Of a stretch of 64,000 nucleotides of DNA, positions 10,778 to 61,885 are shown piece after piece (the stretch's first letter is position 1; each line of letters starts with the position of its first letter). Location: assembly GCA_951406725.2 (NCBI GenBank), contig OX597842.1, positions 14,570,001 to 14,634,000 on the forward strand. Reading direction: 5' to 3'. The stretch is from Octopus vulgaris. Lineage: Eukaryota. The notes below the pieces were generated by a model. That model saw only the letters and a list, made by a program, of their open reading frames with translations, did no database searches and had not been told where the DNA came from. Position numbers and translations under genes: made by a program.

Positions 10778-10959
10778 ATGTTCCAACAATTGAAATTGAT
10801 GTTTGTGTTGATACTCTCTATGAGTTTCTGTTTGGATTCTCATGCTGCATCAGACATTTGCAATATATGTAGCTGTCAAAATTCTGAGACAAATATAGAT
10901 TGTTCATTTCGGCGACTGACTTCCATCCCGCAACCCATTCCAACGAATGTTAAATATTT
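10778..10959 (+). CDS. LRR gene first coding exon: signal peptide plus LRR N-terminal cap (LRRNT)
   Basis: Acceptor ttcttctcttacag at 10757, ATG 10778, MFQQLKLMFVLILSMSFCLDSHAAS-DICNICSCQNSETNIDCSFRRLTSIPQPIPTNVKY(L); donor tt|gtaagt, phase 2. Hydrophobic leader and a four-Cys cap followed by LTSIP..IP. Confidence 0.93.
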
Positions 10960-11375
10960 GTAAGTATTAGACATTTCTATTTCAACATTTAATGCTTTAG
11001 ATTCTCGTTGGTAATGTTCTGAATACCTCATAATGTTATGTTGGAGTAAAAAGGGCAAATATGTTAACTGCCGTTAAGTCAAGTAAATTATTACTCTGTG
11101 TATTTTGACTCATGGAATCTTTAATTTACAATATCCGAACTTTGATTATGTTAGTTTATTACAGCAAAACTCTTTATGGCAAGATTCAGGGAAAGGAATG
11201 TATGAAAACTGTTGCAAAAATCGTTGCATATATTGTTGTTATGAAGGAGAGTATAAAATGGAAGAAATATTCCGATAAATATAATTCTACTGATCGATAT
11301 CGAAATACTGTACTCCAGTTTTACAGTAGACAACCACTAATGGATCTACAATTGATTCTAATGTGAAATAAAATT

Positions 11376-13185
11376 CATGGATCATGCGGCTGGTTTAAAA
11401 CATGTTACGCGTTCTTTTGTACGTTTTTACTGTGAGGTGGACAATTCAAATTGGTGATGGAACGCGTGGTGTCTGTCAGCCGGTGATGAGGGCTGTTTGA
11501 GTGCTTTTTGTGAGAGTTGCTGTGTGCTTAGGATTGTTTTGTGCTGAGGATTGTTTTATGCTGCTTTGCAGCAGTTCTTTGAGTGTAACGCCATCATTGT
11601 TTGGTGGGTGGTACTGACTAACGAAAAGGAAGAGCTACGTGGCAGCAACGGGGAGTCAAGCTTTTGTCGTCCCAAGCATGCTAGAACAAAATGAAATATG
11701 TTGCGATGTAAAATTTTTACAGAAATACTAAGATATGGTAAAGAGAGAAAGGTCAAACGTAAAGTTGACACCACCAGAGGAAGACAAGGAGGGGAGAGAA
11801 AATAAAGTAATAGAGTACAAAACGTTTTCAAAAGAAAAATCAGAGACTTGAGAACGCAACGAAGGAGGAGATGGAAGAATGCCTAAAGGACCTGAAAGAA
11901 AACATAAAGTTTTTTATTATTTTACAAGAGATATGGTTCAGTAGCGGTCACATTTGTCTCCGAAGAATGTGGCAAAAAGATACGCCACAAGGATAGTAGT
12001 TGGGGGAAAATGGACACGTCTGCACAATTACCAGGGTAAATGATCTACTAGGATTAGGGTGGGCAGGATCTCGCCGAGAATCGAGCTAGAGTGGATATTA
12101 GCACCACTTTTCACCACATAAGAGGAAGAAGACAACGAAGTAGTTTAATTATTGTAACCCGGACCCAACAAGTCAATTGATGGGGACACGAGTCAGAGAT
12201 AATTTTTGCGGCGGATCAGAAACTATACGAGGCAATACCAGAGTCATTGGTGCTGTTAAATGAAGACAAACTAGATGTAATGTTGGAGGGGAGGCCTCCA
12301 AAGTGCCTTGGGTGTGTTGAAAAGGGGCATATTAGAAGAATAACGATGGAAAATGCAGAGATAAACATGCAAGAAAGCGTGATGGAGGTGGAGAGTCAGG
12401 TCCAGGAAGTGGAACAGAACATGGAGTTTGTGGAGGTCAAGTTGAGGAAGAGAGAAATGAAGAGTTCACCGCCTGAAATGGAACGGAAGAAAAATAAAGT
12501 ACAAGAACAAGTGAGCCAACCAACAACATGTAGAAGCAGTACACCTGTAGGATCACCAAGGAAAAATGATACAAGTAGAACAACATCACCAAGCAAATGT
12601 ACAGACTTACAATCACACAAACACACAGACTTACAGACACATAAGCACATAGACACACAGACACAAAGAAACATAGACGGACGCATGATAACACAGAGTA
12701 ACAAAGACATTAAGAACAGACATACAGACAGAATAGTTCCACAGGAACACATTATTTTGAATAACGTATCGTACGACCCCAAAATTGGAAAGGAGAATAA
12801 CAGAAATGAAAGGGATTGTTAGAGTGATCCTTTCGGAAGGTTATGAAAAAGATTGTGTCCTGATGGAGAAAGAAAAATATAGAACGCTGAAAGATGTATT
12901 CCCTTCAGATGTAAACGCACTGGGACCCGAGGTGAGTATCGAACCCAGCGATACAGTGGTGAACTATGAGGACATTAAAAGTAACATAAAGTATTAAGTG
13001 CAGATTGATTTTAAGGATTTCTTTGACATAATTGAAATAACGTGACCATCCTGGAGCGGTGTCGGGGTAGCCGTTCCAACTTCATTTGTAAAGTTTCATT
13101 TTTTTCCTGTTCTTTCATATGTTAATTGTCCCTAAATGTGCGTATCGTCCCTCAATGTTAGACCCTTGTGGGTAATTAAAAATCG
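11376..13185 (+). mobile_element. Decayed retroelement with a gag/ORF1-like region (degenerate CCHC knuckle) and no RT
   Basis: ORF 12247..12822 contains GRPPKCLGCVEKGHIRR (CX2CX4H); upstream frames are broken; 3' part ends at cccttgtgggtaattaaaaatc. Boundaries approximate. Confidence 0.55.
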
Positions 13186-61041: not shown

Positions 61042-61479
61042 TCTCTCTCTATATAAACGGCAGTTTGTCTGTCTGTGTCTGTGTGTCTGTCAGGTTGTAC
61101 CCTCACCCTGACCACGGCTTTCAACCGATTCTGATGAAACTTGACACACACATAGCCCAATATCATAATTCAAAACTAACGCAGTGAACATTTTGAAAAG
61201 TTCCCCCAGTTCTGAAAAAAATCGATAAATTCGACATGGGGTCGAGAATCTAAGCTTTTTATATGCAACACATTTTCTGTCTAGGGGACACAACTCGACC
61301 TTTTTATCGCCCAAAGGGACAGCTAGGAACATCGTATACACAGAAGTATTCGAGTGAAGAGAAGACATTGCAACCTACACATGCGCCTTCGTTCCCAAGA
61401 GGGAAATTACTAGATTGGGATTAGTCGTTGCCTACTAGGGGCTCTTACATACCCGGGCAACGCCGGGCTATGCTGCTAG
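61042..61479 (+). mobile_element. Non-autonomous Helitron
   Basis: A|TC..., 3' cccgggcaacgccggg hairpin then CTAG|T. Confidence 0.8.
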
Positions 61480-61813
61480 TATATAATATTTGTACATTCG
61501 GTGAGAATGTGATGTAAAACCAACATCCTGCACAAAACAATGTCTCGATGTCTTGTTATTCTTATAGCTTATTTTCGTCCATCTTTTGTTAATCGGTTAT
61601 CACAGAAACCTTCTCTTCCCTCAGGATATCTAAGTGAGATTAATGGAAACTACTCTTGTCCAAACTATAGGCAGAAAACTCATAGAGAAATAAACATCTT
61701 TGCAGTAAACATGAGCTTTTATTTGCTTAGTTTAGACAGTATATTAACAGTAGAAAACAGACTTATTAATTGTACATATTCTAACTTATAGAATACTTAT
61801 TTCTTTTTTCCAG

Positions 61814-61885
61814 ATATTTGAGCAACAACCAAATACAAAACTATGAGGATGGCGCGTTCTTATTCCTTCCCAGTATTAATCAAAT
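61814..61885 (+). CDS. LRR exon E (single copy): YLSNNQIQNYEDGAFLFLPSINQ(I/M)
   Basis: 72 nt, strong acceptor ttcttttttccag| and donor at|gtatgt, phase 2-2; the gene continues beyond the window. Confidence 0.9.

What the first reader, a model, noticed from the sequence alone, without database searches (positions are those of the whole stretch)
10778..61885. Hidden LRR receptor-like gene built from an expanding array of interchangeable one-repeat exons
Seen: one signal-peptide/LRRNT exon, 11 intact 72-nt LRR exons, one 70-nt exon and one dead exon across 51 kb; no LRR exon appears intact in the ORF track. All are phase 2-2. Every exon before E ends in CT (exon 1 in TT) and every LRR exon starts with G or A, so any join keeps the frame and the split Leu. 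Known: one-LRR-per-exon structure alone is common (e.g. LGR receptors), while modular LRR diversification underlies lamprey VLRs and exon-shuffling LRR genes of Ectocarpus. Inference: ongoing exon birth and death plus hypervariable exons between unique end exons suggests a diversified immune, allorecognition or sensory receptor in a probable cephalopod.
Basis: partly seen in the sequence, partly recalled or inferred. Interest (0 to 1): 0.92.

Follow-up and report, generated by a model that had tools for sequence, protein, structure and literature searches.

The report
Octopus receptor with swappable repeat exons
This is the front half of an octopus cell-surface receptor gene (an adhesion GPCR) whose binding surface is built from one-repeat exons that differ in number and sequence between gene copies, a sign of a fast-evolving recognition system whose targets are unknown.

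Summary
The exons are real: 13 profile hits on the + strand, none in controls. They are the 5' half of an adhesion GPCR. Nineteen further exons, 9-59 kb past the window, encode LRRCT, a Ly6/uPAR-like domain, SEA, HormR, GAIN/GPS and 7TM. As assembled, this copy has one 1-nt frameshift, which is either real or an assembly error. The family is known (group 3 of Ritschard 2019; databases call it 'ADGRG6-like'), and the genome holds at least 40 copies. I found no paper on its exon arrays. Across 19 copies they hold 3-34 intact LRR exons, and 11 copies also hold dead ones. Concave-face codons change about 4 times faster than synonymous sites, while the framework is conserved. RNA-like contigs splice this gene's first coding exon to LRR exons that differ from the assembly's, which points to allelic variation. 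O. sinensis RefSeq models skip single repeats. Combinatorial splicing at this locus, somatic VLR-type assembly and function are not shown. It works like brown-algal ROCO LRR shuffling, here on a GPCR. Verdict: new variant of a known kind.

The parts
10759..10959 (+). First coding exon: ATG at 10778, signal peptide and LRRNT cap; preceded by a splice acceptor, ends in TT before a GTAAGT donor
   Evidence: Sequence; weak LRRNT hit, E 0.008; matched without differences up to the donor by contigs of 4 of 4 runs
18313..18382 (+). Broken LRR exon, 70 nt, splice sites intact, frameshifted
22947..23018 (+). LRR exon B1 (72 nt, phase 2-2)
26109..26180 (+). LRR exon B2; in a 357-bp tandem unit with B3
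26466..26537 (+). LRR exon B3
35753..35824 (+). LRR exon C1
36718..36789 (+). Dead LRR exon, acceptor and donor lost; the same remnant class occurs in two paralogues
38047..38118 (+). LRR exon C2; in a 770-bp duplication (93% identical) with C3
38837..38908 (+). LRR exon C3
50251..50322 (+). LRR exon D1 (identical to D2, D3 and to an exon of a paralogue 0.6 Mb away)
52389..52460 (+). LRR exon D2
54545..54616 (+). LRR exon D3
56738..56809 (+). LRR exon D4 (4 nt different from D3)
49319..57603 (.). Four tandem units of about 2.15 kb, each carrying one D exon (90-96% identical)
   Evidence: self-BLAST
13094..34545 (.). Nested 0.4-3 kb duplications, many 85-97% identical, that carry the B-class exons
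   Evidence: self-BLAST
61814..61885 (+). Terminal LRR exon E, single in this gene, ends in AT
61886..64000 (+). Start of the 11.3-kb intron leading to the rest of the gene: 19 exons at G000:C29:14643201-14692710 (LRRCT, two Ly6/uPAR-like exons, three SEA-like, two HormR-like, five GAIN/GPS, six 7TM and tail)

Best explanation
The window holds the 5' half of an octopus LRR-type adhesion GPCR: signal peptide, LRRNT, n LRRs, LRRCT, Ly6/uPAR-like domain, SEA, HormR, GAIN/GPS, 7TM. It is one of at least 40 copies of a family whose binding module is diversified in the germline. SHOWN: architecture, family, variable exon number, dead exons, excess amino-acid change on the concave face, and spliced RNA-like contigs. 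INFERRED, mechanism of change: every repeat is a self-contained 72-nt phase-2 exon. Unequal crossing-over and conversion of exon-plus-intron units, within and between neighbouring copies, therefore add, drop or swap repeats without breaking the frame. Diversifying selection rewrites the concave beta-sheet residues, and loss of splice sites retires repeats. A transcript normally strings several repeats together, and skipping of single repeats adds minor variants. INFERRED, action, from adhesion-GPCR biology: the receptor cleaves itself at the GPS, and binding or pull on the LRR solenoid signals through the tethered peptide and the 7TM to a G protein. Most likely ligands are fast-changing foreign surfaces (microbes, parasites) met at skin, suckers or gills; I give that about 0.5 within this explanation. 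This copy is either a very young pseudogene, a secreted LRR-Ly6 form, or carries an assembly error.
For: Gene model: 31 exons, all introns GT-AG; with the single frameshift bridged by an N the frame is open for 1247 aa. The large 7TM exon hits Pfam 7tm_2 at E 6.7e-10. A 93%-identical paralogue matches ADGRG2 and ADGRG6 best among solved structures (E 2e-53, 3e-50). Database paralogues join the same N-terminus to GAIN/GPS/7TM. Residues 200-300 of P0010 match UPAR/Ly6 models at TM 0.60-0.68 in 9 of 10 rows. SEA hits at E 6e-5 and HRM at E 7e-4 are both below Pfam's cut-offs. Arrays: 19 intervals from exon 1 to E, each with one exon 1 and no constant exon inside, hold 3-34 intact exons. Broken exons number 21 of 198, in 11 of 19 genes. 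All 174 intact 72-nt exons start with A or G and 154 end in CT or TT. Class strings show blocks shared in mosaic between genes and higher-order repeats. Selection: for 125 exon pairs chosen on upstream-intron similarity alone, concave dN was 0.40, framework dN 0.037, dS 0.10 and downstream intron divergence 0.043. Concave dN/dS was 3.9 (bootstrap 3.3-4.8), or 2.75 (2.1-3.6) against concave dS only; framework 0.36 (0.28-0.45). The constant Ly6 exon gave 0.51. Best grid omega for concave codons was above 1 in 7 of 7 exon classes. RNA-like contigs of 4 runs from 2 studies match exon 1 without differences up to the donor, with no cover in the next intron bin; in 3 of the 4 runs they join it to B-class exons. 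The nearest other exon-1 end is 95% identical. O. bimaculoides group-3 members are expressed in skin (0.71 for the Death-domain member), suckers, axial nerve cord and testes (PMC6408891 supplement 2).
Against: No ligand, tissue or challenge data exist for this gene. As assembled, the frame stops at residue 482: the second Ly6 exon is 183 nt, against 184 nt in 17 of 17 paralogues that the pattern caught among 19 fetched. No single exon class is significant in the likelihood test (2dlnL 1.3-3.6; sum 19.4), and framework omega was 1 or more in 2 of 7 classes. Exon dS is 2.4 times the intron divergence and codon 3 has pN equal to pS, so conversion of old patches may inflate the signal; the pairs are not independent. 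The runs are only guessed to be RNA and are contigs, which can be chimeric across near-identical repeats. No O. bimaculoides protein in hand falls in this gene's subclade, so its expression data are indirect. The tethered peptide reads TSFALQM here against TSFALLM in most relatives, which may weaken that route.
Confidence: 0.7

Rival explanations
1. Same gene and same germline mechanism, but the ligands are octopus-made: self or kin recognition in skin and suckers, or gamete recognition, in a receptor-ligand race.
For: Group-3 members are expressed in skin, suckers and testes; one row has 0.87 in testes (PMC6408891 supplement 2). Allele-level differences in LRR exons fit polymorphic recognition loci.
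Against: Forty or more dispersed copies with rapid turnover resemble pathogen-facing multigene families more than a single histocompatibility locus (general knowledge). No partner ligand locus was identified.
Confidence: 0.2
2. A Dscam- or protocadherin-like neuronal identity code, made by cell-specific or mutually exclusive splicing of the LRR exons.
For: Any join keeps the frame. Ritschard et al. propose a wiring role from axial nerve cord expression. O. sinensis models skip single repeats.
Against: Contigs join LRR exon to LRR exon (2 joints). The five shorter full-length RefSeq isoforms keep 7 of 8 variable repeats, so splicing is not mutually exclusive. Arrays are not conserved even between copies that are 97-99% identical at the second Ly6 exon.
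Confidence: 0.12
3. This particular copy is a young pseudogene, and much of the array is neutral turnover in a recombination-prone, repeat-rich region.
For: 1-nt deletion in the second Ly6 exon, a frameshifted first LRR exon and a dead exon. Three identical D exons show very recent duplication.
Against: Only one break in about 3.7 kb of coding sequence, with no in-frame stop. Frameshifts occur in 2 of 179 LRR exons with both splice sites, so one indel per gene is within background. Change is concentrated on concave codons while the framework is conserved. Exon 1 is found in spliced contigs. This rival can hold for this copy without touching the family-level result.
Confidence: 0.35
4. Somatic, VLR-like assembly: repeats are copied or rearranged at DNA level in single cells.
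For: Fold likeness only: the LRR part of a paralogue model matches hagfish and lamprey VLRs, along with Lingo-1, NGL and Slit2. RNA-like contigs hold exon variants not found among the stored exons.
Against: The gene is complete in the germline and every repeat has its own splice sites, so no rearrangement is needed. The unmatched variants come from other samples and are explained by alleles.
Confidence: 0.04

Closest known systems
Group 3 octopus-expanded adhesion GPCRs (Ritschard et al. 2019, PMC6408891; 'ADGRG6-like' in NCBI)
   Same: Same family: GPS, adhesion 7TM, LRR in some members, nearest human relatives ADGRG1-6. The Ly6-exon profile retrieves clusters that hold all three LRR-bearing O. 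bimaculoides group-3 proteins. The gene nests among group-3 rows.
   Different: That paper saw LRR in 5 of 22 sequences and found no selected sites. In the parts I read it does not describe one-repeat exons, array variation, dead exons, the Ly6/uPAR-like domain or 40 or more copies in one genome.
Brown-algal ROCO genes with shuffling LRR exons (Teng et al. 2024, PMC11378527; Zambounis et al. 2012 as cited there)
   Same: 72-nt phase-2 exons with one LRR each, variable number, positive selection on concave sites, splice variants.
   Different: ROCOs are intracellular LRR-ROC-COR GTPases. This is an extracellular LRRNT/LRRCT-capped module on an animal 7TM receptor; the likeness is convergent.
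Vertebrate ADGRG6/GPR126 and ADGRA2/3 (GPR124/125)
   Same: SEA-HormR-GAIN-7TM as in ADGRG6, and an N-terminal LRR as in ADGRA (both architectures recalled). ADGRG chains are the best sequence matches.
   Different: ADGRG6 has CUB and pentraxin domains and ADGRA has LRR-Ig; both are few-copy genes with fixed ectodomains (recalled). No ADGRA chain appeared among the 37 matches.
Lamprey and hagfish VLRs
   Same: 24-residue LRR modules between LRRNT and LRRCT, variable on the concave face; fold match.
   Different: VLRs are assembled somatically from cassettes into an incomplete germline gene (PMC13428168). Here the gene is complete and the modules are spliced exons.
Arthropod Dscam1; human NLR LRR exon modularity (Hoss et al. 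2019, PMC6642158)
   Same: Tandem exon arrays with frame-compatible splicing; skipping of an LRR exon changes function in NLRP3 (abstract).
   Different: Dscam picks one exon per cluster. Here consecutive repeats are joined, and most diversity lies between genes and alleles.

Membership tests
Adhesion GPCR | Secretin-class 7TM (7tm_2) | tested here: met
   Pfam 7tm_2 E 6.7e-10 on the large exon; tblastn colinearity with full-length paralogues
Adhesion GPCR | GAIN domain with GPS motif just before TM1 | tested here: met
   CSCNHL/TSFA motif in the model; Pfam GPS and weak GAIN in paralogues
Adhesion GPCR | Long ectodomain in one open frame with the 7TM | tested here: inconclusive
   Open for 1247 aa only if one 1-nt deletion is bridged; intact in paralogous database models; no cDNA spanning this gene
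Adhesion GPCR | Autoproteolysis and tethered-agonist signalling | not testable with these tools
   Cleavage motif present; tethered peptide has Q where most relatives have L
Group 3 of Ritschard 2019 | Falls in the octopus-expanded class B clade | tested here: met
   Nested among group-3 proteins A0A0L8GYR2, A0A0L8HDZ7 and A0A0L8FKK5 (45-54% identity; midpoint root, no outside aGPCR as outgroup, 3 of 17 rows dropped for lack of the motif); group labels from supplements; family-specific exon shared
VLR-type system | Incomplete germline gene with flanking cassettes | tested here: not met
   Complete gene; all repeats are spliceable exons between the end exons
VLR-type system | Somatic assembly and clonal expression | not testable with these tools
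   Needs matched DNA and cDNA from one animal
Dscam-type mutually exclusive array | One exon per cluster in each transcript | tested here: not met
   LRR-to-LRR joints in contigs; multi-repeat RefSeq isoforms of a paralogue; docking-site RNA structures were not searched
ROCO-type LRR exon shuffling (works like) | 72-nt phase-2 one-repeat exons in variable number | tested here: met
ROCO-type LRR exon shuffling (works like) | Diversifying selection on concave sites | tested here: met
   (ratio 2.75-3.9); one search agrees in direction, no single class significant
ROCO-type LRR exon shuffling (works like) | Alternative splicing of the repeats | tested here: inconclusive
   Seen in predicted O. 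sinensis isoforms; not separable from allelic variation at this locus
ROCO family (membership) | ROC-COR GTPase domains | tested here: not met
   None in the model or paralogues
LGR / glycoprotein-hormone receptors | Rhodopsin-class 7TM | tested here: not met
   7TM is secretin class with a GPS

The most novel reading that the evidence does not exclude
Octopuses have an anticipatory receptor repertoire. Dozens of polymorphic genes, each with up to about 34 swappable LRR exons under diversifying selection, are further varied cell by cell through exon skipping. This gives haemocytes or skin and sucker cells distinct VLR-like binding surfaces wired directly to G-protein (and in one member Death-domain) signalling, perhaps with secreted LRR-Ly6 forms.
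Probability: 0.2. Interest if true: 0.9.

Novelty: new variant of a known kind. Interest (0 to 1): 0.63.

Why it matters
Comparative reviews list Dscam splicing, FREPs and VLRs as routes to receptor diversity; the passages I read in one 2026 review name no diversified receptor for cephalopods (PMC13428168). Here is a large octopus family with the signature of a recognition race on a defined binding face, coupled to a GPCR. It gives concrete candidates for how octopus skin, suckers or blood cells tell foreign from self. It also shows the brown-algal 72-nt exon-shuffling design arising again in an animal. Practical point: automatic annotation often splits or truncates these genes (several database models lack the LRR or the 7TM half), so the family's diversity has probably been undercounted.

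Tried and rejected
(1) LGR receptor, my first guess: rejected because the 7TM is secretin class. (2) ADGRA-like: not favoured; the best matches are ADGRG and the domain after the LRRs is Ly6-like, not Ig. (3) More LRR exons past E or on the - strand: none. (4) D1-D3 as an assembly duplication: unlikely, since a paralogue carries the identical exon twice at the same spacing. (5) The first selection analysis chose pairs on the framework codons and so biases dS down; it was replaced by intron-based pairing. The constant-exon control failed and was redone. The first likelihood run gave no omega and was redone as a grid. (6) AlphaFold model of a paralogue: mean pLDDT 47.7; only the LRR, SEA-like and helical GAIN parts were usable, and the Ly6 region was not resolved. 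(7) A recurrent, programmed truncation after the Ly6 domain: one database protein (P0058) leaves the frame at the same place. Among 40 scored copies in this genome only three had an odd match length, and the two besides this gene had normal exon ends, so no support. (8) The run search listed no holder on record as RNA; kinds are guesses. (9) Rfam: no match. (10) Earlier findings: none. (11) Literature: nine searches found no description of these arrays. Term searches in PMC9068888 and PMC13218726 found no GPCR or LRR mention. Most subscription journals are outside the library. The supplement of PMC11431876 could not be read, so the 'adhesion GPCR G6' found in octopus skin mucus cannot be tied to this family. 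(12) Left open: the neighbouring gene at C29:14.47-14.51 Mb has no exon 1 in either search, and its upstream DNA was not read.
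Full report
1. Observation. A DNA profile with splice flanks finds 11 intact 72-nt LRR exons between 22947 and 61885, a 70-nt exon at 18313 and a remnant without splice sites near 36718. A profile trained only on 153 exons of other gene copies gave 13 hits on the + strand, and none on the - strand, in 10 shuffles or in the reversed window. 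The first coding exon is 10759-10959, with a signal peptide and an LRRNT cap. All LRR exons are phase 2-2. They ride on duplicated units of 357 bp, 770 bp, about 2.15 kb and up to about 3 kb. D1-D3 are identical, so 9 repeats are distinct.

2. What the gene is. The window lies at G000:C29:14570001-14634000 of a 2.8-Gb genome. The closest named proteins come from Octopus sinensis and O. vulgaris, at 90-94% identity. In 120 kb of downstream DNA, tblastn with these and longer relatives gave a colinear series of exons. The 31-exon model has only GT-AG introns. Its order is: signal peptide, LRRNT, 11 LRRs, LRRCT, a cysteine-rich domain, SEA, HormR, GAIN with GPS, 7TM. The cysteine-rich domain of paralogue P0010 matches UPAR/Ly6 models at TM 0.60-0.68 in 9 of 10 rows. 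SEA and HormR are weak Pfam hits in paralogues. The closest solved structures of a 93%-identical paralogue are ADGRG2 and ADGRG6. As assembled, the frame ends at residue 482, because the second Ly6 exon is 183 nt. It is 184 nt in 17 of 17 paralogues caught among 19 fetched. Bridging that one position gives 1247 open codons. Whether the deletion is real was not tested.

3. Family. Exon 1, exon E and the Ly6 exon give 40 (of 46 candidates, 40 scored), 39 (of 39) and 40 (of 63 candidates, 40 scored) matches, mostly on C29, C30 and C31. A profile of the Ly6 exon found 24 proteins among 1.84 billion representatives. Of the 10 looked up, 7 were named, all from Octopus; their clusters include A0A0L8GYR2, A0A0L8FLR8 and A0A0L8HDZ7. 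These are the three LRR-bearing O. bimaculoides members of group 3 in Ritschard et al. 2019 (supplement 3). In a GAIN-7TM tree of 14 rows the gene nests among group-3 rows; three rows were dropped, the root is the midpoint and there is no outside outgroup. So the family is known.

4. Array variation. I read 19 intervals from exon 1 to E: this gene and 18 copies chosen from the hit lists. Each has one exon 1 and no constant exon inside. Intact LRR exons number 3 to 34 (lower bounds for C30 and C31). Broken exons are 21 of 198, in 11 of 19 genes. Of 174 intact 72-nt exons, all start with A or G and 154 end in CT or TT, so the split leucine survives almost any join. Class strings show blocks shared in mosaic between genes, higher-order repeats and five exons that are identical in two genes. 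By contrast, the second Ly6 exon is 96-99% identical among the ten closest copies.

5. Selection. The concave positions (codons 1, 3, 4, 6, 22 and 23 of the exon) were fixed beforehand from the LRR consensus. For 125 pairs among 158 variable exons, chosen on upstream-intron similarity alone (85 between genes, 40 within), corrected divergence was: concave dN 0.40, framework dN 0.037, dS 0.10, downstream intron 0.043. Concave dN/dS was 3.9 (3.3-4.8), or 2.75 (2.1-3.6) against concave dS; the framework gave 0.36. Codons 1, 4 and 23 carry most of the signal; codon 3 has pN equal to pS. The constant Ly6 exon gave 0.51. A likelihood grid put concave omega above 1 in 7 of 7 classes, none significant alone, and framework omega below 1 in 5 of 7. 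Gene conversion and non-independent pairs are caveats.

6. Transcripts. Six runs held 0.63-0.79 of the exon-1 words; all are only guessed to be RNA. Four of them, from two studies, were laid on 10700-26700 at 90% likeness. In all four, contigs match exon 1 without differences up to the donor, and the next intron bin is empty. Joints run from exon 1 to a B1-like exon (X1) and to a B3-like exon (X2, X5). LRR-to-LRR joints occur in an order unlike the assembly (X4, X1). The partner exons differ from the window's at their variable ends. The X4 variant was in none of the stored sequences, and the X2 variant matched none of the ten nearest stored exons. The closest other exon-1 end is 95% identical (29 of 29 scored). 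The simplest reading is that other animals carry different alleles of the array; an unassembled twin gene or chimeric contigs are not excluded. These data do not show alternative splicing within one allele. In O. sinensis, RefSeq models of one paralogue include a 1208-aa form and five 1184-aa forms, each lacking one repeat. Three of the five gaps fall in near-identical repeats and could be mapping artefacts; two do not. A second locus shows the same pattern at 157 versus 133 aa. These are predictions; that RefSeq isoforms usually rest on read junctions is recalled, not checked. They point to skipping of single exons, not to mutually exclusive choice.

7. How it most likely works. The diversity is made in the germline: duplication, unequal exchange and conversion of exon-plus-intron units change the number and order of repeats, selection changes the binding face, and splice-site loss retires repeats (inferred from sections 4 and 5). 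Signalling by GPS cleavage and a tethered peptide is inferred from adhesion-GPCR biology (recalled); this subclade has Q where most relatives have L in that peptide. The ligand class is unknown. I favour foreign surfaces at body epithelia, given the pattern of selection, the skin, sucker and gill expression reported for group 3 and a Death-domain member. Self or gamete recognition and neural wiring are rivals.

8. Comparison and papers seen. PMC6408891: parts 2-4 of 6 of the main text, passages, and rows of supplements 1-3. It reports LRR in 5 of 22 group-3 sequences, branch-level positive selection and no selected sites. PMC11378527: abstract and sections 11 and 15; brown-algal ROCO genes have 72-nt phase-2 LRR exons, concave-face selection and splice variants, and are the closest mechanistic match. 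PMC6642158: abstract and outline only. PMC13428168, PMC13193013 and PMC11431876: passages. PMC9068888 and PMC13218726: term searches. Nine searches found no account of these exon arrays; the library lacks most subscription journals.

9. Verdict. This is a known receptor family with an apparently undescribed, ROCO-like modular diversification of its binding domain: a new variant of a known kind. Interest 0.63. The boldest reading, a cell-level spliced repertoire, has probability about 0.2 and would merit 0.9.

Noticed in passing
window 10-2652: A 2.6-kb (ATA)n microsatellite, 878 copies at 91% matches.
   Followed up: no
window 3012-5126 (+) and 6232-8076 (-): Broken retroelement-like frames; zf-RVT hit at 7630-8076, E 1.4e-5.
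   Followed up: partly
window 59761-60850: Mariner/Mos1 transposase remnant in the intron before exon E (HTH_48, E 8.6e-9).
   Followed up: partly
window 13904-13985, 19909-20007, 24464-24514: A short interspersed repeat with very deep cover in all four RNA-like runs; it sits inside the duplicated units that carry the B exons.
   Followed up: no
L008, L010, L012 (C29:14.71-14.75 Mb): Three near-identical copies of reverse-transcriptase and integrase-like frames downstream of the gene (likeness judged by eye, no family scan).
   Followed up: no
P0069 / P0078 (O. bimaculoides A0A0L8FLR8): A family member with a C-terminal Death domain and 0.71 of its expression in skin.
   Followed up: partly
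P0058: A database protein that leaves the frame right after the last Ly6 cysteine, as this gene does in the assembly, giving an LRR-Ly6 protein without membrane part.
   Followed up: partly
G000:C10:6792002-6801081; P0051; C30:19583260-19595005: Constant exons also duplicate: two E exons in one gene, a doubled Ly6 domain and three Ly6 exons within 12 kb.
   Followed up: no
L073-L084 (C29:15.07-15.18 Mb): The longest array read: 34 intact exons, three of 69 nt, in higher-order units of two to four exon classes.
   Followed up: partly
G000:C29:14466138-14512192 (-): The neighbouring paralogue, head to head with this gene, has E, Ly6 and B-class exons but no exon 1 in either search.
   Followed up: partly
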